From positions 1-10,626 of the IMG/VR virus record IMGVR_UViG_3300023487_000117: DNA of 10,626 bases, one strand, 5' to 3'. Shown in pieces: positions 1 to 10,626 of the stretch; the first letter of the stretch is position 1, and every line of letters starts with the position of its first letter. The notes under the pieces are model-generated. The model saw only the letters and a program-made list of their open reading frames with translations. It had not been told where the DNA came from and did no database searches. A program made the translations under genes and the position numbers. This DNA comes from a virus. Its lineage: Duplodnaviria; Heunggongvirae; Uroviricota; Caudoviricetes.

Positions 1-36
1 TTGAAAACAAGAACCTCGCTTAGGCCTGTGTCCATA

Positions 37-3000
37 TTACGTGGGTAGGATCAACTTCGCCTTAAAGTCGTCGTAACCGTTCTCCATGAAGTAGCCGGTA
101 CGCCCATCATTGCCGTTCGCGTTGTCCAGAATAACCATGATTTTTGGCTTAATACCAATGCTTGGACGGATTAGATCGTCTCCCAGCCCCATTTCGGCCG
201 CCATGCGCGTCATCAGTACATTTACTTCAGCAGAGCGCTTAGGGTTCATCTCGAACGGTCGAGAGGCTTTTACAGCGTCGATCACCAGATTGCCCATCAA
301 CTCTGCCTGGTCGCGCAGTCGTTCCGGATCTGTCGCTGGCAGACTGCCAGACTCAATCGATGCGAACGCACCTACTTTTTGCAGTGATTCGCGTACCCGG
401 CTGTTACATGCACGCTTCTCGACCGCTTCCTCAAATTGCTCAAGTGACTCGAATTTGCCGCCAACTTTCTCACGCGCTCTCATGATGGCCTGGCAATCAT
501 TCTCAGAGCAGCCTTTCACAGCAGAGAATGGTGCATACAGAACCTGACTGCCGTCTTCCAGCGTGCGGTTCTCAATTCGGTTAGATGACACGTTAACGTC
601 TGGTGGCAATACGCGAATGCCATAGGTCAGCGCATCCTTAACCAGCCCCTGGTGCTTATCCTCGCCCAGAATGGTGAGCGCAGCAGCGAAGAACTCAGCA
701 GGGTAATGTGTCTTTAACCACATAGACTGATAGCTGATTAAAGAATAAGCAACACTGTGTGATTTGTTGAAGGCATATCCACCGAACTTCTCAAAGGCGT
801 CCCATATTTCTTGGGCTTTTTCCTTACTGAGACCTTCTTGTTCAGAGACGATCTCCACGTAGTCTATGCCGTCACTAATAGCCTCGCTGTAGCTTCTACG
901 CTTACCGTCTGAGCAATCCAGTTTTGCGTGTTTGTGAACCTCTACAGTACCTCCATTTTTGAGTGACAGTGTCACCCAGCCTGCTTGTGCTCGTTCTACA
1001 AAATCGCTGCCGATCGCTTTCATCTTATCCATGTTCTTTTTACCGATAGCGGAACGCAGAGCGTCTGCTTCGGCCATAGAGAACCCGGCAAGTACTCGGG
1101 AACTTTGCATGATTTGTTCCTGATAGAGCAAAACACCATTAGTCTCCCGGGTGACTTCCTCAAGACGCGGATGAATTGAATGTGGAGCCATGAAGCCTTT
1201 GGCCACGGAGACATAGTCGTCCAACATGCCGGATTGGATCGGGCCAGGTCGGAAGAGTGCGGTCGTGGCGACAACGGTTTTGAAGCTCATTGGCTCAATG
1301 CCACCGCCCAGATCTTTAAGCAGCTTGCGCATGGGGCCGGACTCCAGCTGGAATACGCCCTGCGTGTACCCTGCAGCGAACCCATCCAGAACCTTACGAT
1401 CGTCCAGTGGAATAGCATCGAGATTGATGTCTTCCCCGGTACTCTCTTTGATGTAGCGTTTCGCGCTATCCAGCAGATCGAGCGTTGCCAGACCGAGAAC
1501 GTCCAGCTTAATCAGCCCCATTGCCTCGCAGTAACGTTTATCGAACGCAATACAGCGAGCGTTGCCACGCAGCTCGACGGGAGTGCGCTCTATCAATGGA
1601 ACGCCAGCGACGATCATCCCCGCAGCGTGACGACCAAAACCACGCATCAGGCTTTGCAGCTTACACGCCGCTTTGAACGCTTCCGGGTTTTTCGTGGCGT
1701 ATTTGTCCAGGCTGGCCAGTTGCTCGCGCAGCTCTTCCAGAGACAGGCTATCGTCTTCCAGATTCTTGAACTCTTTGGATACCGCCATATCCGCAGCGTC
1801 GACACCGTAAATACGCGCAGTGTCTCGCAGCGCAGAAGCGGCGCCCAGATAGGTGAAGTTTGGAATACCGGCAACGTAATCTTCGCCATAGCGTTCATTC
1901 AGATACTCGATCACCTCATGACGACGTGCCTGGCTGAAGTCCAGATCCGCATCCGGTAAGTCAAGACGTTCAGGGTTGATGAAACGCTCAAACAGAAGAC
2001 CGTGACGGATAGGATCGACGTTGGTTATGCCTATGCACCACGCTACCAGAGAACCCGCTGACGAACCACGCCCTGGCCCAACCGGTATTCCTGTTTCACG
2101 GCTGTGATTCATCAGATCGCGTACCATCAGGAAGTAGCCACAGAAGCCCAGACGGGTCAGTGTGTCCATTTCGTACTTCAGTCGCTCAACATACACTCGG
2201 TGCTCAGAAGCCGGTGGTGTGTAGCCAAACTCTTTAGTAGTTAGACGCTTGCGTAGCCCCGCGACAGCCAGCTTCATCAGCGTTGCAGGCTCGTCGTCTG
2301 CCATCTTGGGCAGTGCTGGTGGCAGTTCATGCCAGCGCCATGTGCAGGCTTCAATAATGGTGTCCTGCGTTGTTGAGGCCATTGCAGCTGTTACCGGTAC
2401 GCCCATGCGAACGGAGAAGGCTTTCAGCGCTTCAAGGAGATGGCGACGACCATTAACAGCGTTATCTCGCTGGTGGGGGATGCGCAGACGATGCGGCTGG
2501 TCGATTTTGATGTTGTTCGTAACCATGTGCGCAATGTCTTTAATGTCAGCGTCGTCGATCGCTTCGTAATAAGCGGGATAGAACGCCACTGGCTCTATTT
2601 TCAGTGCGCTCGCCACTTTCATCGCCCGGACGTTAATCTGGTCGTAGAATGGGGTAGGGTGCGGATAAACCACGCTGTAGAAGTTATCGCGACCGCCAGC
2701 TGTGACCAGCGTCCCGATAATTTTTGCGAAGTCCCGGCGCTGGAATACACTGCCAATGTCGGACGTCAGCAGGATGATGTTGCCTTTGGCATATGCGGCT
2801 GCCAGCTGCTCAAGCGCCAGACGCGGGACAAAGTAGAATTGCTCGCGCTTGTTCGCTAAGGTCATCAGTTCGCACACGTCGCGATAACCTTGTTCATTCT
2901 TTATCAGTGCCGTGAAGCAGTAGCTGCTATCACGAACTAATGATTCCATACATCTTCCTGACTCTTTCGCCAAGCGAGCGCGGTGCTCGTATGTCGGATC

Positions 3001-3204
3001 GTCGACCACATTCAGCTTAACACCACAAATAACCGCCATGTCGTCGCCAGCGGCACGCTGCAGGGGGATCACACTGGCAATGTTCATGCTGTCAGCGGAA
3101 ATGACAGCGGTGTAGCCAGCGTCTCTCGCGATTTTCACCGCGTTTTCTGCTTTTAGAGCTGACTCTCCCAGGGAGAAGTCAGTTCTGACCATCAGAGCCT
3201 TCAT
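37..3204 (-). CDS. DnaE-family DNA polymerase (Pol III alpha-like), 1055 aa, stand-alone
   Basis: Long uninterrupted ORF. Pol III alpha hallmark block GYFLMVRDLMNHSRETGIPVGPGRGSSAGSLVAWCIGITNVDPIRHGLLFERFINPERLDLPDADLDF, matching the E. coli DnaE region around the catalytic PDFDVDF as recalled. Third acidic residue context KLDVLGL and GRHAAGMIVAG also present. N-terminal PHP-like region lacks the HxH dyad. Start ATG at 3202-3204 preceded by AAAGG. Confidence 0.85.
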   Translation of the reverse strand: MKALMVRTDFSLGESALKAENAVKIARDAGYTAVISADSMNIASVIPLQRAAGDDMAVICGVKLNVVDDPTYEHRARLAKESGRCMESLVRDSSYCFTALIKNEQGYRDVCELMTLANKREQFYFVPRLALEQLAAAYAKGNIILLTSDIGSVFQRRDFAKIIGTLVTAGGRDNFYSVVYPHPTPFYDQINVRAMKVASALKIEPVAFYPAYYEAIDDADIKDIAHMVTNNIKIDQPHRLRIPHQRDNAVNGRRHLLEALKAFSVRMGVPVTAAMASTTQDTIIEACTWRWHELPPALPKMADDEPATLMKLAVAGLRKRLTTKEFGYTPPASEHRVYVERLKYEMDTLTRLGFCGYFLMVRDLMNHSRETGIPVGPGRGSSAGSLVAWCIGITNVDPIRHGLLFERFINPERLDLPDADLDFSQARRHEVIEYLNERYGEDYVAGIPNFTYLGAASALRDTARIYGVDAADMAVSKEFKNLEDDSLSLEELREQLASLDKYATKNPEAFKAACKLQSLMRGFGRHAAGMIVAGVPLIERTPVELRGNARCIAFDKRYCEAMGLIKLDVLGLATLDLLDSAKRYIKESTGEDINLDAIPLDDRKVLDGFAAGYTQGVFQLESGPMRKLLKDLGGGIEPMSFKTVVATTALFRPGPIQSGMLDDYVSVAKGFMAPHSIHPRLEEVTRETNGVLLYQEQIMQSSRVLAGFSMAEADALRSAIGKKNMDKMKAIGSDFVERAQAGWVTLSLKNGGTVEVHKHAKLDCSDGKRRSYSEAISDGIDYVEIVSEQEGLSKEKAQEIWDAFEKFGGYAFNKSHSVAYSLISYQSMWLKTHYPAEFFAAALTILGEDKHQGLVKDALTYGIRVLPPDVNVSSNRIENRTLEDGSQVLYAPFSAVKGCSENDCQAIMRAREKVGGKFESLEQFEEAVEKRACNSRVRESLQKVGAFASIESGSLPATDPERLRDQAELMGNLVIDAVKASRPFEMNPKRSAEVNVLMTRMAAEMGLGDDLIRPSIGIKPKIMVILDNANGNDGRTGYFMENGYDDFKAKLILPT

Positions 3205-3384: not shown

Positions 3385-4620
3385 TTAACCAAAGATCTTC
3401 TGAACCACTTCACGCGCTGCCTGTGCAGACGTGGATGGAAGTTTATTGATAAACGACTTTTCGATGCCGGCAGAGAAATCACCGCGCATCATTCCGATTT
3501 TGGCGGACAGCAGCAGCTCACGAGGCCCGATTGGCTGGCTAATCTGATGCTTTTCATAACCTTCACGGATAAGATTCGCGAACTTCACCATCTTCTCGGC
3601 GTATTCGCGGATGACGCCTGCTTCAGCCAGCATGTTGACTTCTGCCTTCGTACTCATGTACTTCACGTTTGAAACAATGCCAAAACGCGAGAAGTTCGCT
3701 GCGTTCTGGATGTTTGTGCCTTGATAGAGACCTGTTTCGTCGCCAGAGCCGTTAGTGTTGCCAGTGCCAATGAAGGCAAAGCGTTTATGCGGGGTGATGC
3801 GGCGCCAGTCCGCAGTTGCCTCTTTGATGATCAGCGGCTCTCCTTCAAGAACTGGCTGATACACACCCAGAATCTGCGGGAACGCGAAGTCATATTCATC
3901 AGCGAGGTAAACCCAACCATTTTTCATCGCCAGCGCTAGTAAACCCGGTTCGAAATAGGTGGAACCATCGCGAGCGAGGATCTGGCCTGTAACGTGCGCT
4001 TCCTCCATAGACGCCGTATGCTGGGCGCGGATCAGTGGTCGATTTAGCAGGGCACATAGCTGCGTAGGAAGAGAAGATTTACCGGTTCCTGCATGGCCCC
4101 AGAGATAACCCGGGATTCCGATTTCCAGCATCATAAAGATGTCCTTGATCAGGTCGAAGTCGCCATACACATAGTTTTTCTTCGCTTCAGGTACGAACTC
4201 CGGATAGGGCGTGTTGACGTTGACTGTCACCTGTAGTGGTTTTCCGCGTGGTGTACCCAGCTCTTTGATCGTTACGCCAAGCAGCTCGTGCGCGGCCACC
4301 AGTTCGGTCTTGTATTCGACCGTTCCTGCGTAGCCCGGATGTGCGCTAATCTCCGCTACTTTTCCTTCGCCTGAATGCTTTTCGGCACGCTTCTCATTGA
4401 GTTTGGCCAGTGCCGTGCGAGAGATCGTTGGTTCATCTGGAAACGCAGAGGTGTACATCTTCACCACTTCGTCCACGTCCAGACCCTTCGCAGACTCAGG
4501 AATATTCTCGCAACGGCCCATAGAGATATGGGATTTCAGGTAATGAAAGGATTTGCCACACCACTTGCAGACGATGGCTTCCGGCAAATGTTCTTCTTGC
4601 TGTAGTGCAGTAGCGGTCAT
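3385..4620 (-). CDS. CobS-like AAA+ ATPase (MoxR family), 411 aa
   Basis: Walker A GHAGTGKS (aa 175-182), Walker B-like VYLADEYD, overall CobS/MoxR-like layout. N-terminal C-x2-C-x4-H-x4-H-x5-C motif. Strong RBS AAGGAAAAAAC before ATG at 4618-4620. Confidence 0.8.
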   Translation of the reverse strand: MTATALQQEEHLPEAIVCKWCGKSFHYLKSHISMGRCENIPESAKGLDVDEVVKMYTSAFPDEPTISRTALAKLNEKRAEKHSGEGKVAEISAHPGYAGTVEYKTELVAAHELLGVTIKELGTPRGKPLQVTVNVNTPYPEFVPEAKKNYVYGDFDLIKDIFMMLEIGIPGYLWGHAGTGKSSLPTQLCALLNRPLIRAQHTASMEEAHVTGQILARDGSTYFEPGLLALAMKNGWVYLADEYDFAFPQILGVYQPVLEGEPLIIKEATADWRRITPHKRFAFIGTGNTNGSGDETGLYQGTNIQNAANFSRFGIVSNVKYMSTKAEVNMLAEAGVIREYAEKMVKFANLIREGYEKHQISQPIGPRELLLSAKIGMMRGDFSAGIEKSFINKLPSTSAQAAREVVQKIFG

Positions 4621-4715
4621 GTTTTTTCCTTACTGTTTGTCGTTTGTGGGGTATATCTTATAGAAATATATTAGGATGTATAGTAAGTAGTTACTTATTT
4701 TTAAGGGTAAAGCTA

Positions 4716-7019
4716 TTACCTAAGAATGATACGAGATAACTCAGTGACGACTGACGGCCCTAGCTCTTCAACACTGTTAACCAGTGCGTAATTTTTGTAG
4801 TAACGCCGTGGTTCGTCGGTCAGAATGCCGATAGCCATCAGTTCGATGTCGCTCAAGGTCTCAATTTCTTTGGTGACGGTTCGTAAATGCTGATGGAATC
4901 CACTACCTGTAGCACATGGCTCCCCATCACTCATAACCAGCATGATCTTTTTGTCCTCCATTCGCCCTGCAAACAGGGTAGCCAGTTGCGCGACACTCTC
5001 ACCATCGACGTTATTGAGCAGTGGGAACGTCTCACATACGCATCCCATGCGAGCACGGATCTCTGGAGAGTTTGCTTTCTCATTCCAGTTTTTGATAATG
5101 GGCAGCATGAGCGCCTCGAAGCGTGTAAACCCGCGCTTCGACCTGGTTTCATAATCTGGGCTACCGAACGTGGTAAAGCCGGTGATGATGTTGGGGACAT
5201 TGATACGATCTAAAGCATCCGCAATGGTATAGGCACTGGCTAGGGCCAGTTGAATCTTCACGCCATCCATTGAGCCGGACAAGTCGATGACCTGCTGGAC
5301 ACACGCGTTCACCGCTCTATGGTCTTCCTTCTTGCGGAACACTCGGTCGTCGTTCATTGCCAGACGATACAGGCTCGCGCCATGTATCCGCCCACGCCTC
5401 TGACCAGGTATAAACTGAACTCGGTTGCGGCTGGCGATGGCCCGCTCCAGGTCTTTGGCCAGCGTCGAAGAAACGCCTGCAGACAGATGTTTTTCGATTT
5501 TCAGTTCAAAGAGTTTTCTGCCTTCTGGCACCATACGGTAGCGGTCGACTGGTGAGTGCATTGGTATTGCACCGAACGTCTTTCTGGTGCGCTTCACATG
5601 CTCTTCGGCTCCATCAATCAACCCGATAAAGTCGTATGATCGATCGTATGGCCGATAATCAGAAGGTGAGACGCTCATAAGCTCTTTGCTGATGGTGGCC
5701 GACAGTGCGTCTTCGGTCATTTCACCGATTCCGTCTTCCATCTCGTCGAGCGCCTTTAGTGCCTCCTCCAGAGTCATTTCATCCGGCGCAGGAACAAAGC
5801 CAGACTCACTGTCTTTGGGCACTTCCGCACCATCTTTATTTTCTTTGCCTTCGACGTCTTCTTCTTCAGTTTCCCCACGATCAGTATCGGAGTCCTCACC
5901 GCCATCACCATCAGAATCATCGGTATCTTCGCGAATACCATCGCCAGGTCTTGGGGCGCCAGTGCCATTGCTGCCGTCATCATCGGTGTCAGAGTCACTT
6001 GATTTTATGCCGATAGCATCGGATTCTGGGGTGTCTCCTGACTCTTCGTGGCCTGCTTCTGTATATTTACTTTCTGTATCACTAATATCTTTAACGTGTG
6101 TAGGTAAGTCCTTATCTAATGAATCAGACAAATCGGAACCCCCAGAATCTTCCTCTTCTGATGCATCATCTTCTCGTTCTTCCTTGTCATCGCCTTCGCC
6201 TTTGGCAGGCTTAGATGCAGAGTCACCATGAGACGGTTCGTCACCTGATTCTGGCGTTTCCTCGGACTCGTCTTTGCTCTTCGACGGCTTTCTGGCAGAT
6301 GATTTAAGTTCTGGTAATTTGCCCTCTGGCTTGTCTTTCATATCCTGCATGATTTGGGCTATAGCAGCAGCGACCTTCACGCAATCCTCAGTGTTCGACA
6401 TATTGCGAACGGCCACGTCTATACCATGCTCCTTTAGTAAGGCTACCGGCCTCTCGATAAGGCGCCAGTGTTCTTCCATAAAATCGATGAAGGGGCTTTG
6501 TCCATCCCAGGCGCGGACGACCGGGCAAAGAAAGAATTTCAAAAACAATTCACGCTGGTCTCCGTGACAGGCTAAAACCGCTTCTGGTACTTTATTCCTG
6601 AAGTATTTGTCGATAACCAGACTCTGTGTTGCAAGTAAATTACGCCGGGTTCCGTTAAAGACCTGCCCCATTCTGCGTTCAATAAAAACGTCTTCCAGCG
6701 CATTCCAAAGCCCCGTAGACGGAGCCTTTCCTCTTTCGCGCATCTGCATTGCGACTTTCGGTTCAGTAAAGAGAATATGGGCCACCTCATGGTCGAGAAA
6801 ACCACGCACTGCGTTCATGAGGGTTGGCGACGCGTCGTCCGGTATAGATGGGATGTTTACCAGCACTGGTTCGCCGCGCCGGTTATAGCGGACATATGCT
6901 TCATTGCCTCGTTCTGCAACAGGTATCTGTTTACCTGAAAGCATCGCTACAACTCGTTTTACACAGTCGCGAAAATCTTGCACCTCTTTCAGTACAGCTT
7001 TGGTGGTTTTTTTGGACAT
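4716..7019 (-). CDS. CobT-like protein: N-terminal domain with HExxH motif, ~210-aa acidic D/E/S/G-rich linker, C-terminal vWA domain with MIDAS
   Basis: vWA MIDAS DLSGS (codons 5271-5285) and downstream MSDGEP. Acidic low-complexity centre encoded at about 5709-6338. Preferred start is ATG at 7017-7019 (MSKKTTKAV) with a perfect RBS AAGGAAATTCTA; the ORF-track start at 7088 lies inside a palindrome and has no RBS. Confidence 0.8.
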   Translation of the reverse strand: MSKKTTKAVLKEVQDFRDCVKRVVAMLSGKQIPVAERGNEAYVRYNRRGEPVLVNIPSIPDDASPTLMNAVRGFLDHEVAHILFTEPKVAMQMRERGKAPSTGLWNALEDVFIERRMGQVFNGTRRNLLATQSLVIDKYFRNKVPEAVLACHGDQRELFLKFFLCPVVRAWDGQSPFIDFMEEHWRLIERPVALLKEHGIDVAVRNMSNTEDCVKVAAAIAQIMQDMKDKPEGKLPELKSSARKPSKSKDESEETPESGDEPSHGDSASKPAKGEGDDKEEREDDASEEEDSGGSDLSDSLDKDLPTHVKDISDTESKYTEAGHEESGDTPESDAIGIKSSDSDTDDDGSNGTGAPRPGDGIREDTDDSDGDGGEDSDTDRGETEEEDVEGKENKDGAEVPKDSESGFVPAPDEMTLEEALKALDEMEDGIGEMTEDALSATISKELMSVSPSDYRPYDRSYDFIGLIDGAEEHVKRTRKTFGAIPMHSPVDRYRMVPEGRKLFELKIEKHLSAGVSSTLAKDLERAIASRNRVQFIPGQRRGRIHGASLYRLAMNDDRVFRKKEDHRAVNACVQQVIDLSGSMDGVKIQLALASAYTIADALDRINVPNIITGFTTFGSPDYETRSKRGFTRFEALMLPIIKNWNEKANSPEIRARMGCVCETFPLLNNVDGESVAQLATLFAGRMEDKKIMLVMSDGEPCATGSGFHQHLRTVTKEIETLSDIELMAIGILTDEPRRYYKNYALVNSVEELGPSVVTELSRIILR

Positions 7020-7072
7020 TAGAATTTCCTTGTTGTTAAAACAATTTGTTTTCTGATGTGCGTAATTTATCA

Positions 7073-7105
7073 CTGTACGAACAGGCATCTAATCTGTTCG
7101 TACAG
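7073..7105. promoter_or_regulatory. Perfect 12-bp inverted repeat pair (CTGTACGAACAG / CTGTTCGTACAG) with 9-bp spacer, upstream of the cobT-like start
   Basis: Arms at 7073-7084 and 7094-7105 are exact reverse complements. Located 54-86 bp upstream of the preferred start and 28 bp downstream of the 70-aa ORF stop. No U-tract follows on the minus strand. Confidence 0.4.
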
Positions 7106-9222: not shown

Positions 9223-9389
9223 ATATAGCTTACGTAAATTCTGAATATATTATGTAGACAAACCATCTTAAACGCTAAATAGTAAAAAGCGCCTAATAAC
9301 GCCAACTTTGGAATGCCATCTGAGCCAGATTGATGAGAATGATTTGTTAGAAGAAAAAGAATGATGAAGAAGATGACGATCGCTAAAGT

Positions 9390-9737
9390 TCAGCTAGAAT
9401 GGAAACCTTCTGCGACTTCAGCGAAGTAGCTGAGCAACCTAGTATCTCTTGCTGGCATACGATCGTGAGCTGGAGTGACTAGCCCCATCAGCAAAAAACG
9501 CCCGCTATCCCACATGTGCTCGGTATAAACGAGATAGTGGTTTGAGGTTCGGTTGTAGTTCTCTTGCCTTGCGTTCCAGGTAAGCTGGAAATGCAAATTG
9601 ACGTGAATATGCTGGACATTAGCATCAACGGCGAACGGCGGGAAGTCAAATGGCGCATCTCGTCCAAGAAGATTAGATGGTGCGCCAGTTGATTTGTAAG
9701 TAATGGGGTCTGAGGGCCAATGGAACGAAAACGTACG
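9390..9737 (-). pseudogene. Start-less open frame (~116 codons), likely remnant of a truncated gene
   Basis: Frame open from the stop at 9738-9740 to the stop at 9390 with protein-like composition (...DAPFDFPPFAVDANVQHIHVNLHFQLTWNARQENYNRTSNHYLVYTEHMWDSGRFLLMGLVTPAHDRMPARDTRLLSYFAEVAEGFHSS). No ATG; the only start is a TTG at 9596. Family not recognised. Confidence 0.25.
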
Positions 9738-9904
9738 CTAAGGAAATAACCAATTGTTATAATTGATATTATTCATTCTTCTCTATGAACTGAAAGCCCG
9801 CACTAAGCAATGTTTTAGCCTCAAATGACTTTTTTACCTACCCAACTAACGTAACGATCGCACATCAGGTCGTTTTTCAACCGCATAGTGACACCTGCAC
9901 TCAC

Positions 9905-9960
9905 ATGCGAGAAAACACATATGATTTTGACTTCTTGTTTTGGTGGAGAGACAATACCCA
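9905..9960 (+). promoter_or_regulatory. ars promoter/operator region
   Basis: -35-like TTGACT at 9927-9932 inside CATATGATTTTGACTT, which resembles the R773 ars promoter/ArsR operator as recalled. -10-like GACAAT at 9950-9955. RBS GGAG 6 nt before the arsR ATG. Confidence 0.4.
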
Positions 9961-9979
9961 TTCATAGCAGGAGTACATA

Positions 9980-10333
9980 ATGCCAGAAATTGCATCCCTA
10001 CAACTTTTCAAAATACTATCTGATGAAACCCGCCTGGGTATCGTGCTACTGCTCAGGGAGATGGGGGAGCTGTGCGTATGCGATCTCTGCACAGCGCTGG
10101 AACAATCACAACCCAAGACCTCCCGCCATCTGGCGATGCTTCGGGAAAGTGGCCTGTTGCTGGATCGCAAGCAGGGGAAATGGGTTCATTATCGCTTATC
10201 CCCGCATATTCCTTCCTGGGCTGCCCTGGTGATTGAGCAGGCCTGGTTAAGTCAACAGGACGACGTACAGGCCATCGCCCGTAAGCTGGCATCCGCCAAC
10301 TGCTCTGGCAGCGGTAAGGCTGTTTGTATCTAA
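9980..10333 (+). CDS. arsR: ArsR arsenical-resistance operon repressor (117 aa)
   Basis: Near-identical by eye to R773-type ArsR: LQLFKILSDETRLGIVLLLREMGELCVCDLCTALEQSQPKTSRHLAMLRESGLLLDRKQGKWVHYRL, metal-binding ELCVCDLC and C-terminal CSGSGKAVCI. Confidence 0.95.
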   Translation: MPEIASLQLFKILSDETRLGIVLLLREMGELCVCDLCTALEQSQPKTSRHLAMLRESGLLLDRKQGKWVHYRLSPHIPSWAALVIEQAWLSQQDDVQAIARKLASANCSGSGKAVCI

Positions 10334-10380
10334 AAATTTTGCCTGTACATATATGTTTTTACGAATATGATGTGTTAAAG

Positions 10381-10626
10381 ATGAAAATGTTAACGGTGTT
10401 TGATCCGGCGATGTGCTGCAGTACCGGCGTTTGTGGTTCAGATGTCGATCAGGTTTTGGTCAATTTTTCTGCTGATGTGCAATGGCTGAAAGGGCGTGGG
10501 GTTCAGATCGAACGTTATAACCTGGCGCAGCAGCCTATGAGCTTCGTTGAGAACGAAAAAGCGAAAGCATTCCTTGAGGCTTCTGGAGCTGAAGGGCTTC
10601 CGCTGCTGTTGCTTGATGGTGAAACG
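10381..10626 (+). CDS. arsD: ArsD arsenic metallochaperone/repressor, 5' part (first 82 codons; truncated by window end)
   Basis: ATG at 10381 in frame to the window end: MKMLTVFDPAMCCSTGVCGSDVDQVLVNFSADVQWLKGRGVQIERYNLAQQPMSFVENEKAKAFLEASGAEGLPLLLLDGET, with the ArsD Cys12-Cys13-Cys18 motif. Confidence 0.9.
   Translation, partial: MKMLTVFDPAMCCSTGVCGSDVDQVLVNFSADVQWLKGRGVQIERYNLAQQPMSFVENEKAKAFLEASGAEGLPLLLLDGET

What the first reader, a model, noticed from the sequence alone, without database searches (positions are those of the whole stretch)
37..3204. DnaE-like polymerase with intact catalytic Asp triad but degenerate PHP and short C-terminus
Palm aspartates are retained (DADLD at codons ~1939-1953, plus KLDVLGL), so polymerase activity is plausible. 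The N-terminus reads MVRTDFSLGES where E. coli DnaE has the HxH metal dyad, and the protein is ~100 aa shorter than E. coli DnaE, which suggests the tau-binding tail is missing. No imuA/imuB neighbours, so it is not a classic DnaE2 mutasome cassette.
Basis: partly seen in the sequence, partly recalled or inferred. Interest (0 to 1): 0.5.

Follow-up and report, generated by a model that had tools for sequence, protein, structure and literature searches.

The report
IS3-truncated phage-plasmid DnaE polymerase gene
The ORF is the well-known DnaE-type DNA polymerase of an SSU5/pHCM2-type phage-plasmid, and it looks short only because an IS3 insertion sequence has cut off its last 117 codons, so the finding is ordinary.

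Summary
The ORF at 37..3204 (minus strand, 1055 aa) is real and is a C-family (DnaE-like) polymerase. The three palm aspartates are intact. None of the nine PHP metal ligands is kept.

The "short C-terminus" is not a native feature. Window 1-53 is the right end of a 1258-bp IS3 element with a 3-bp target duplication (ACT, 54-56). The ORF's last four codons and its stop lie in the IS3 inverted repeat. The missing 117 codons sit, still in frame, on the other side of IS3.

Intact relatives are 1168 aa, about the size of E. coli DnaE (1160 aa). They carry a degenerate family-4 uracil-DNA-glycosylase (UDG)-like domain in place of the OB and tau-binding domains. Timinskas et al. 2014 already described this architecture.

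The window matches E. coli plasmid pB379_2 (5 nt differences). This is a decayed SSU5-like phage-plasmid that keeps RepA but has lost most virion genes, so the disrupted polymerase is probably a dispensable relic. The gene is not a host dnaE duplicate (31% identity) and not DnaE2/ImuC.

One side observation may be worth more than the finding. UDG-tailed viral DnaE genes always follow a CobT-like VWA gene and a CobS-like AAA+ gene (115/115 loci). Viral DnaE genes without the UDG tail never do (0/25).

The parts
1..53 (+). Right end of a 1258-bp IS3 element. It holds the last codons of the transposase (to position 23) and the terminal inverted repeat ...GGGTAGGATCA.
   Evidence: The annotated IS3 transposase ends at L001 12023, which is window 23. 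The IS spans L001 10796-12053 with imperfect ~39-bp inverted repeats. Other SSU5-like plasmids match the window only from position 52 onward.
54..56 (.). ACT, one copy of the 3-bp target-site duplication made by the IS3 insertion.
   Evidence: The second copy is at L001 10793-10795. The uninterrupted gene in L002 reads AGCAACTTCGCC across the site.
37..3204 (-). Truncated dnaE-like ORF of 1055 aa. Residues 1-1051 are native. I-L-P-T and the stop come from IS3.
   Evidence: RefSeq annotates it as dnaE, with a separate 3' fragment marked as a pseudogene lacking its N-terminus.
2335..3195 (-). PHP domain (about aa 4-290) with 0 of 9 canonical metal ligands.
   Evidence: Pfam PHP, E=6e-12. Ligand positions read M5 R7 E14 S39 K63 C96 S148 P210 Y212. 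30 of the 37 related full-length proteins in the alignment also score 0/9.
1492..2280 (-). Palm and thumb (aa 309-571). Catalytic D418 and D420 lie at 1945-1953; the DADLD block through D422 spans 1939-1953. D568 lies at 1501-1503.
   Evidence: Pfam DNA_pol3_alpha, E=5e-73. These residues align to E. coli D401, D403 and D555 and are invariant in 40/40 members.
985..1485 (-). Fingers domain (aa 574-740).
   Evidence: Pfam DNA_pol3_finger, E=2e-46.
841..984 (-). 48-aa lineage-specific insertion in the fingers domain (aa 741-788). In relatives, this is the site where the gene is split.
   Evidence: It is absent from Taq (residues 788/789 are contiguous), Mtb and E. coli DnaE. Relatives are split here, with or without an HNH endonuclease gene.
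352..840 (-). End of the fingers domain plus the (HhH)2 domain (aa 789-951).
   Evidence: Pfam HHH_6 at 862-951. It aligns to Taq 789-947.
292..309 (-). QAELMG (aa 966-971), a conserved motif just after (HhH)2. It is a candidate beta-clamp-binding motif, not proven.
   Evidence: Q, L, M and G are invariant in 19 C-terminal pieces. Q966 is at least 90% conserved in 38 full-length members and present in 88/96 domain sequences. The AF2 model puts it inside a helix.
52..222 (-). Stub (about aa 995-1051) of the family-4 UDG-like domain. The other ~117 residues are cut off by IS3.
   Evidence: In intact relatives the domain runs to aa 1168. It matches TIGR00758 at E=3.8e-8. The model has a family-4 UDG fold, and the family profile hits PDB 4zbx at E=1.4e-22.
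3385..4620 (-). CobS/MoxR-like AAA+ ATPase, a conserved upstream neighbour of the polymerase.
   Evidence: Pfam AAA_5. The NCBIfam CobS model scores 85 bits against a cutoff of 558. Synteny is shown.
4716..7088 (-). CobT-like VWA protein with an acidic low-complexity middle, the second conserved upstream neighbour. RefSeq starts it at 7019.
   Evidence: Pfam CobT_C, E=2e-108. The NCBIfam CobT model scores 75 bits against a cutoff of 759. Synteny is shown.

Best explanation
**Shown**
- The ORF is the 5' 90% of the dnaE-like gene of an SSU5/pHCM2-type phage-plasmid.
- A 1258-bp IS3 element inserted after codon 1051, inside the C-terminal domain. This fused four IS-encoded codons and a stop to the gene and separated the last 117 codons.
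- The native protein (1168 aa) has these parts in order: a PHP domain with no metal site, the Pol III alpha palm, thumb and fingers with an intact Asp triad, (HhH)2, and a family-4 UDG-like domain in place of the OB and tau-binding domains.

**Inferred**
- In intact elements this protein is the polymerase of the phage's own replisome. That replisome includes a DnaB-like helicase, a primase, a gp32-like SSB, a ligase and a 5'-3' exonuclease. No clamp, clamp loader or DnaQ is annotated.
- The PHP domain is only structural, so the enzyme has no built-in proofreading.
- The UDG-like domain lacks the Fe-S cysteines, the uracil-specific Asn and the motif-B His. It more likely acts as a DNA-binding or processivity module than as a glycosylase.
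- In this plasmid the phage part has decayed, and maintenance runs on RepA and the host replisome. The IS3-disrupted polymerase is therefore most likely a dispensable, recently inactivated or crippled relic.
For: **Identity**
- The window matches E. coli plasmid pB379_2 over its full length, with 5 nt differences.
- The protein is 92-95% identical to the polymerases of phages SSU5 and Cyrano.
- It matches phrog_405 over its full length.

**IS3 insertion**
- The annotation shows an IS3 transposase flanked by dnaE and a 3' dnaE pseudogene fragment.
- The inverted repeats, the 1258-bp length, the ACT duplication and the intact in-frame 118-aa fragment were checked directly.
- The intact allele is 1168 aa.

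**Domains**
- Searches give the domain map.
- The PHP site scores 0/9 and the Asp triad is invariant.
- The C-terminal model has pLDDT 86.6. It superposes on family-4 UDGs (4zbx E=1.6e-10, TM 0.78).
- The family profile matches 4zbx at E=1.4e-22. That alignment shows GEAPG replaced by LDNAN, the uracil Asn by G1066, the motif-B His by N1141, and the Cys ligands by E1004, L1007, K1070 and F1086.

**Prior description**
- Timinskas et al. 2014 describe the variant in Y. pestis and S. enterica strains.

**Decay of the element**
- pB379_2 keeps RepA, portal and terminase. Its primase and ParB are truncated. It carries many IS copies and large cargo such as ars, ttr, bcs and dha. No capsid or tail genes are annotated.
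- The intact replication module is visible in phage Cyrano.
- The same truncated allele occurs in a Shigella flexneri plasmid.
Against: - No experiment shows that the truncated protein is inactive. It keeps the whole polymerase core, (HhH)2 and the conserved QAELMG motif.
- The 3' fragment differs from a relative at only one residue, so the insertion is recent and selection has not had time to act.
- The role of the polymerase in plasmid-state versus lytic replication of SSU5-like elements has not been tested.
- Non-catalytic status of the UDG-like domain is inferred from motif loss only. MUG/TDG-type glycosylases also lack the motif-B His.
- Loss of virion genes rests on RefSeq annotation, not on a dedicated search.
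Confidence: 0.88

Rival explanations
1. The truncated 1055-aa protein is still a working polymerase, the UDG-like tail is dispensable, and the plasmid still uses the enzyme.
For: - The complete PHP-to-(HhH)2 core and the Asp triad are retained.
- The same allele persists in two plasmids from different hosts.
- Relatives work as two separate polypeptides, so the enzyme tolerates rearrangement.
Against: - The UDG-like domain is fused or adjacent in every family member and has about ten near-invariant residues. That implies selection for it.
- The cut falls inside the domain, not at a domain border, and leaves a ~55-aa stub that cannot fold.
- Other replication genes of the element are also broken, for example the primase.
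Confidence: 0.2
2. One reading: a naturally short DnaE-like polymerase that has simply lost the tau-binding tail.
For: The ORF is 105 aa shorter than E. coli DnaE. The family does lack the OB and tau-binding domains.
Against: The stop codon lies in the IS3 inverted repeat, and the rest of the gene lies beyond the IS. All uninterrupted relatives are ~1080-1170 aa with a UDG-like tail.
Confidence: 0.02
3. A DnaE2/ImuC-type error-prone translesion polymerase carried by a plasmid.
For: DnaE2 also has a degenerate PHP site and lacks the tau-binding CTD (PMC3919608).
Against: - The NCBIfam DnaE2 model scores 410 bits against a cutoff of 939, and the DnaE1 model scores higher at 698.
- There are no imuA/imuB genes nearby. 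The neighbours are phage replication genes.
- The C-terminus is UDG-like, not OB.
Confidence: 0.03
4. In intact relatives the C-terminal domain is an active uracil (or other base) glycosylase. It would couple base excision or uracil sensing to replication.
For: - The domain has a family-4 UDG fold.
- The acidic residue of motif A is kept as Asp in 96/107 sequences, and the motif-B Pro in 106/107.
- About a third of the family keeps the Cys ligand pattern.
- Motif B reads N-P, as I recall for MUG-type enzymes (own knowledge).
Against: The SSU5 type lacks all four Fe-S ligands, the uracil-specific Asn and the motif-B His. NCBIfam scores are far below cutoff, 33 against 125 bits.
Confidence: 0.1

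Closest known systems
DNA polymerase of Salmonella phage SSU5, Escherichia phage Cyrano and pHCM2-type phage-plasmids. This is the 'DnaEX' variant with a UDG domain in Timinskas et al. 2014 (PMC3919608).
   Same: - 92-95% identical over residues 1-1052.
- Same neighbours: CobT-like gene, CobS-like gene, integrase and repressor.
- Same domain order up to the cut.
   Different: This copy is interrupted by IS3 after codon 1051, so it lacks two thirds of the UDG-like domain. The host element is a decayed plasmid rather than a complete phage.
E. coli / Taq DnaE1 (Pol III alpha)
   Same: The PHP, palm, thumb, fingers and (HhH)2 core aligns (31% identity to E. coli; Taq E=5e-125). The catalytic Asp triad is kept.
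   Different: - 0/9 PHP ligands, against 4/9 in E. coli and 9/9 in Taq.
- A 48-aa insertion in the fingers domain.
- No OB domain and no tau-binding CTD.
- Below the NCBIfam equivalog cutoff, 698 against 1002 bits.
Family-4 uracil-DNA glycosylases and UdgX (PDB 4zbx, 1ui0, 6ail)
   Same: The C-terminal domain of intact relatives has the same alpha/beta fold (TM 0.78). The relationship is also detectable by sequence profile (E=1.4e-22).
   Different: The SSU5 type has no Fe-S cysteines. Motif A reads LDNAN instead of GEAPG. The uracil Asn is replaced by Gly and the motif-B His by Asn. The domain is fused to a polymerase.
[quoted passage not shown]
   Same: In each case a UDG-fold module is attached to, or partnered with, a viral replicative polymerase that has no sliding clamp gene. 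Kazlauskas & Venclovas 2011 proposed it as an intrinsic processivity factor.
   Different: Those polymerases belong to different families (A or B, not C), and the domain is N-terminal in SPO1. No functional data exist for the DnaE fusion.
IS3 (IS3 family, 1258 bp)
   Same: It has the expected length, terminal inverted repeats starting TGATC, a two-ORF transposase with programmed frameshift, and a 3-bp target duplication.
   Different: Nothing unusual. Only its last 53 bp lie in the window.

Membership tests
C-family DNA polymerase (Pol III alpha superfamily, TIGR00594) | Score above the superfamily cutoff, and a PHP-Pol3-(HhH)2 core | tested here: met
   TIGR00594 scores 651 bits against a cutoff of 434. 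Pfam finds PHP, DNA_pol3_alpha, fingers and HHH_6.
C-family DNA polymerase (Pol III alpha superfamily, TIGR00594) | Three catalytic palm aspartates | tested here: met
   D418, D420 and D568 align to E. coli D401, D403 and D555. They are invariant in 40/40 members.
DnaE1 (replicative Pol III alpha) | C-terminal OB fold and tau-binding CTD | tested here: not met
   E. coli similarity ends at residue 947. Pfam finds no OB domain at E<=1. The model shows a UDG fold instead.
DnaE1 (replicative Pol III alpha) | NCBIfam equivalog score | tested here: not met
   PRK05673 scores 698 bits against a cutoff of 1002.
DnaE1 (replicative Pol III alpha) | Internal beta-clamp-binding motif after (HhH)2 | tested here: inconclusive
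   A conserved QAELMG lies at 966-971.
DnaE2 / ImuC | NCBIfam subfamily score and an imuA-imuB-dnaE2 cassette | tested here: not met
   PRK05672 scores 410 bits against a cutoff of 939. The neighbours are AAA+, VWA and integrase genes.
SSU5/pHCM2-type DnaE-UDG polymerase (phrog_405; DnaEX-UDG of Timinskas 2014) | High identity to the SSU5 polymerase and the same gene neighbourhood | tested here: met
   92% identity to SSU5. phrog_405 scores 1205 bits over residues 4-1167 of the intact allele. Synteny is shown.
SSU5/pHCM2-type DnaE-UDG polymerase (phrog_405; DnaEX-UDG of Timinskas 2014) | Complete C-terminal UDG-like domain | tested here: not met
   In this copy the domain is cut after residue 1051 by IS3. 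It is a disrupted allele of a family member.
Family-4 uracil-DNA glycosylase | Alpha/beta UDG fold | tested here: met
   Tested on the intact relative P0004: Foldseek hit to 4zbx, E=1.6e-10, TM 0.78.
Family-4 uracil-DNA glycosylase | Motif A GE(A/G)PG, motif B HP(S/A), a uracil-specific Asn, four Fe-S cysteines, and the NCBIfam cutoff | tested here: not met
   The corresponding residues are LDNAN, N1141-P, G1066, and E1004/L1007/K1070/F1086. TIGR00758 scores 33 bits against a cutoff of 125.
Cobaltochelatase CobS/CobT (the neighbouring genes) | NCBIfam equivalog scores | tested here: not met
   CobS scores 85 bits against 558, and CobT 75 bits against 759. They are related ATPase/VWA proteins, not true chelatase subunits.
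IS3 | Terminal inverted repeats, about 1.26 kb, 3-bp target duplication, frameshifted two-ORF transposase | tested here: met

The most novel reading that the evidence does not exclude
The CobT-like VWA protein and the CobS/MoxR-like AAA+ ATPase just upstream may not be cobalamin genes. They may be obligate partners of UDG-tailed DnaE polymerases, for example an assembly, loading or remodelling factor. With the UDG-like domain standing in for the OB and tau-binding domains, this would define a distinct clamp-less phage replisome type. It is shared by ~100-120 kb phages and phage-plasmids of Enterobacteria, Rhizobium, Pseudomonas syringae and many uncultured hosts. The evidence is perfect one-way co-occurrence: 115/115 UDG-tailed DnaE loci have both genes upstream on the same strand, against 0/25 viral DnaE loci without the tail. 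Against it, CobS-like ATPases also occur in T4-like cyanophages that have no DnaE, the loci are phylogenetically related, and there is no mechanistic precedent.
Probability: 0.2. Interest if true: 0.6.

Novelty: already known. Interest (0 to 1): 0.15.

Why it matters
The finding matters little. The gene, the IS3 element and the pseudogene fragment are all already annotated in RefSeq. The DnaE-UDG architecture was published in 2014.

It is a useful caution: an ORF that ends near a window edge can look like a short variant when a mobile element has truncated it. It is also a small example of a phage-plasmid decaying into a plain plasmid, with its replication genes broken by IS elements.

What remains unknown is the biochemistry of this polymerase family. 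Open questions are the role of the UDG-like tail, how the enzyme gets fidelity and processivity without a PHP site, DnaQ or a clamp gene, and why it always travels with an AAA+/VWA gene pair.

Tried and rejected
- **Group I intron in split-gene relatives.** Rfam at E<=1 found nothing in L003 3500-4900. The two pieces have their own stop and start codons. I conclude it is a free-standing HNH homing endonuclease gene, not an intron.
- **Intein at the 48-aa insertion.** Rejected by eye: it has no Cys/Ser start and no His-Asn end.
- **Aligning E. coli QADMF (920-924) to this protein by MSA.** The region after (HhH)2 is not homologous and the alignment was meaningless. I can only call QAELMG positionally analogous.
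- **The search for related loci with the UDG-domain alignment A2.** It failed because no stretch was conserved enough. I used full-length alignments and single distant proteins instead.
- **The search for homologous proteins with the C-terminal 227 aa.** It returned mostly 385-390-aa C-terminal pieces of split genes, not full-length proteins. The representative search gave the full picture.
- **Literature searches.** Searches for a DnaE-UDG fusion in phages, for pHCM2 polymerase, and for CobT/CobS together with SSU5 or Pol III found nothing specific. The only description found is one sentence in PMC3919608.
- **Not attempted.** I did not predict a full-length structure, because it would not change the verdict.
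Full report
**What is in the sequence.** The window has a 1055-codon ORF at 37..3204 on the minus strand. Pfam finds a PHP domain (6-156), the Pol III alpha catalytic domain (309-571), the fingers domain (574-740) and an (HhH)2 domain (862-951). KLDVLGL contains D568. In a BLASTP alignment to E. coli K-12 DnaE, these residues pair with the catalytic D401, D403 and D555. They are invariant in 40 of 40 related full-length proteins.

**PHP domain.** The nine metal-ligand positions are defined in Barros et al. 2013, Table 1 (PMC3666897). In E. coli they are R10, H12, D19, F44, D69, H83, G134, D201 and R203, and the consensus is H H D/H H E H C/H D/N H. Here they read M5, R7, E14, S39, K63, C96, S148, P210 and Y212, so none of nine is kept. 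E. coli keeps four. So the catalytic triad and the dead PHP site are both confirmed. E. coli itself has R-x-H at the first motif, not HxH.

**The short C-terminus is an insertion artefact.** The window matches E. coli plasmid pB379_2 (NZ_CP090457.1) over its full length, with 5 nt differences. All other SSU5-like plasmids match only from window position 52 onward. In pB379_2 the annotation reads, in order, a 3' "DNA polymerase III subunit alpha" pseudogene lacking its N-terminus, an IS3 transposase, then dnaE. I checked the junctions directly.
- The IS is 1258 bp (L001 10796-12053) and has imperfect terminal inverted repeats.
- It is flanked by a 3-bp duplication, ACT. The uninterrupted allele reads AGCAACTTCGCC across the site.
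- In window coordinates, IS3 occupies 1-53 and one ACT copy lies at 54-56.
- The ORF is identical to the intact allele through residue 1051. It then reads I-L-P-T-stop from the IS3 inverted repeat.
- The separated fragment still encodes 118 in-frame residues ending ...AETINK*. It differs from a relative at one residue, so the insertion is recent.
- The intact allele, for example in pEC21Z137-115K, is 1168 aa. E. coli DnaE is 1160 aa.

**What the native protein is.** The protein is 92-95% identical to the polymerases of Salmonella phage SSU5 and Escherichia phage Cyrano. The intact allele matches phrog_405 end to end. It is only 31% identical to host DnaE, and that similarity stops at residue 947, just after (HhH)2. 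It is therefore not a host duplicate. It clears the C-family superfamily cutoff (651 against 434 bits). It fails every equivalog, including DnaE1 (698 against 1002) and DnaE2 (410 against 939).

**The C-terminal domain.** The last ~170 residues of the intact protein hit family-4 UDG models weakly (TIGR00758, E=3.8e-8). An AlphaFold model of a 389-aa C-terminal piece has pLDDT 86.6. Its last ~190 residues superpose on family-4 UDGs and UdgX (4zbx E=1.6e-10, TM 0.78). A profile of 22 diverse domain sequences hits 4zbx at E=1.4e-22. That alignment, together with column counts over 107 sequences, shows four differences in the SSU5 type:
- The four Fe-S ligand positions are E1004, L1007, K1070 and F1086.
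- Motif A, GEAPG, reads LDNAN.
- The uracil-specific Asn is G1066.
- The motif-B His is N1141.

About a third of the wider family still has the Cys pattern. About ten positions are nearly invariant, among them Y1063, T1065, K1069, K1072, E1093, P1099, G1106, Y1128, D1133 and P1142. The domain is therefore under selection, but it is probably not a canonical glycosylase.

**Prior literature.** This architecture is already described. Timinskas et al. [quoted passage not shown] Kazlauskas & Venclovas 2011 noted that viral C-family polymerases diverge after the fingers domain. They also proposed that UDG-like domains on phage A-family polymerases act as intrinsic processivity factors, by analogy with vaccinia D4-A20.

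**Family-wide features.** A whole-library search with the UDG-like domain found 129 cluster representatives. Nearly all are ~1080-1170-aa DnaE fusions or ~385-390-aa C-terminal pieces. In 30 of the 37 related full-length proteins in the alignment the PHP site scores 0/9, with recurrent replacements (R, E, T, R, G, P at positions 2, 3, 4, 5, 7, 8). The dead PHP site is therefore ancient in this clade and not decay in this copy. A motif Q-x-E-L-[ML]-[PG] (QAELMG, residues 966-971) is conserved just after (HhH)2. It resembles a clamp-binding motif in sequence and position. However, the model places it in a helix, so I rate it only as a candidate.

**Context and likely function.** The intact phage Cyrano shows the full replication module: helicase, primase, ligase, integrase, repressor, CobT-like gene, CobS-like gene, the polymerase, UvsY, a gp32-like SSB, a 5'-3' exonuclease, RecA, RepA, SbcCD, RuvC and RNR. 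No clamp, clamp loader or DnaQ is annotated. I infer that the polymerase serves the phage's own replisome. pB379_2, by contrast, is decayed. It keeps RepA, portal and terminase, but its primase and ParB are truncated. IS26, IS1, IS3 and IS5 copies are scattered through it. It carries large cargo (ars, ttr, cellulose synthesis, propanediol and IncF fragments). No capsid or tail genes are annotated. The same truncated allele occurs in a 170-kb Shigella flexneri plasmid. The simplest reading is that the polymerase is no longer needed and has recently been knocked out or crippled. Whether the truncated protein keeps any activity has not been tested.

**Side observations.**
1. Residues 741-788 are a 48-aa insertion absent from Taq, Mtb and E. 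coli DnaE. In many relatives the gene is split exactly there. Some carry a NUMOD4-HNH endonuclease gene between the pieces (L003). Rfam finds no intron signature there. Others have only an ~80-nt spacer and a new ribosome-binding site and ATG (L089, L069). One cluster of C-terminal pieces has 1459 member sequences.
2. The CobT-like VWA gene and the CobS-like AAA+ gene upstream are far below the true cobaltochelatase cutoffs. Their association with this polymerase type is very tight. I took IMG/VR loci from four scans and kept those with at least 6 kb upstream of the polymerase. All 115 UDG-tailed DnaE loci have both genes upstream on the same strand. None of the 25 viral DnaE loci without the UDG tail has either. 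Excluding close SSU5 relatives, the counts are 51/51 against 0/25. Polymerase identity in these loci falls to about 32-40%. The link is one-way, because CobS-like ATPases also occur in T4-like cyanophages without DnaE.

**Verdict.** The polymerase, the Asp triad and the dead PHP site are real. The short tail is an IS3 truncation. The object is already known and annotated, so interest is low. The one lead worth following is the conserved VWA, AAA+ and DnaE-UDG module.

Noticed in passing
window 3385-7088 (minus strand); also L005, L085-L193: A CobT-like VWA gene and a CobS/MoxR-like AAA+ gene always precede UDG-tailed DnaE genes on the same strand. This holds in 115/115 viral loci with at least 6 kb upstream, and in 0/25 viral DnaE loci lacking the UDG tail. 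Both proteins score far below the true cobaltochelatase cutoffs. CobS-like ATPases also occur alone in cyanophages.
   Followed up: partly
window 841-984 (aa 741-788); L003 3867-4562; L089 12367-12460; L069 about 12358-12440: The 48-aa fingers insertion marks a recurrent gene-split site. Some relatives carry a free-standing NUMOD4-HNH homing endonuclease there (Rfam finds no intron signature). Others encode the polymerase as two ORFs with only an ~80-nt spacer. The 389-aa C-terminal pieces are often mis-annotated as 'uracil-DNA glycosylase'.
   Followed up: partly
window about 9289-10626: Homology to other SSU5-like plasmids ends at 9289, 9402 or 9705. The YafO-family toxin gene here is 315 nt, against 417 nt in a relative. 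An arsRDABC operon follows, with arsR at window 9980-10333. This is the edge of a cargo insertion into the phage-plasmid backbone.
   Followed up: partly
whole plasmid NZ_CP090457.1 (L001, L006-L009): pB379_2 looks like a phage-plasmid turning into a plain plasmid. RepA, portal and terminase remain. The primase, ParB and the polymerase are disrupted. There are many IS26, IS1, IS3 and IS5 copies, two group II introns, and metabolic cargo (ttr, bcs, dha, ars).
   Followed up: partly
L001 4558-6897 (outside the window); L010 28309-30648: A 779-aa protein is annotated as a 'LAGLIDADG family homing endonuclease' in plasmids and as RecA in phage Cyrano. It is probably a RecA interrupted by an intein.
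   Followed up: no
window about 5770-6340 (aa ~250-440 of the VWA protein): A long Asp/Glu/Ser-rich low-complexity stretch separates the CobT-like N-terminal region from the C-terminal VWA domain.
   Followed up: no
UDG-like domain family (alignment of 107 sequences): About a third of the UDG-tailed DnaE proteins keep a C-x2-C...H...C pattern at the Fe-S ligand positions of family-4 UDGs. The SSU5 type has lost all of them. The domain therefore seems to be at different stages of degeneration in different lineages.
   Followed up: partly
window 868, 4682, 5644, 6281, 7224: The window differs from the deposited pB379_2 sequence at five single bases. I did not examine their effect on the proteins.
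   Followed up: no
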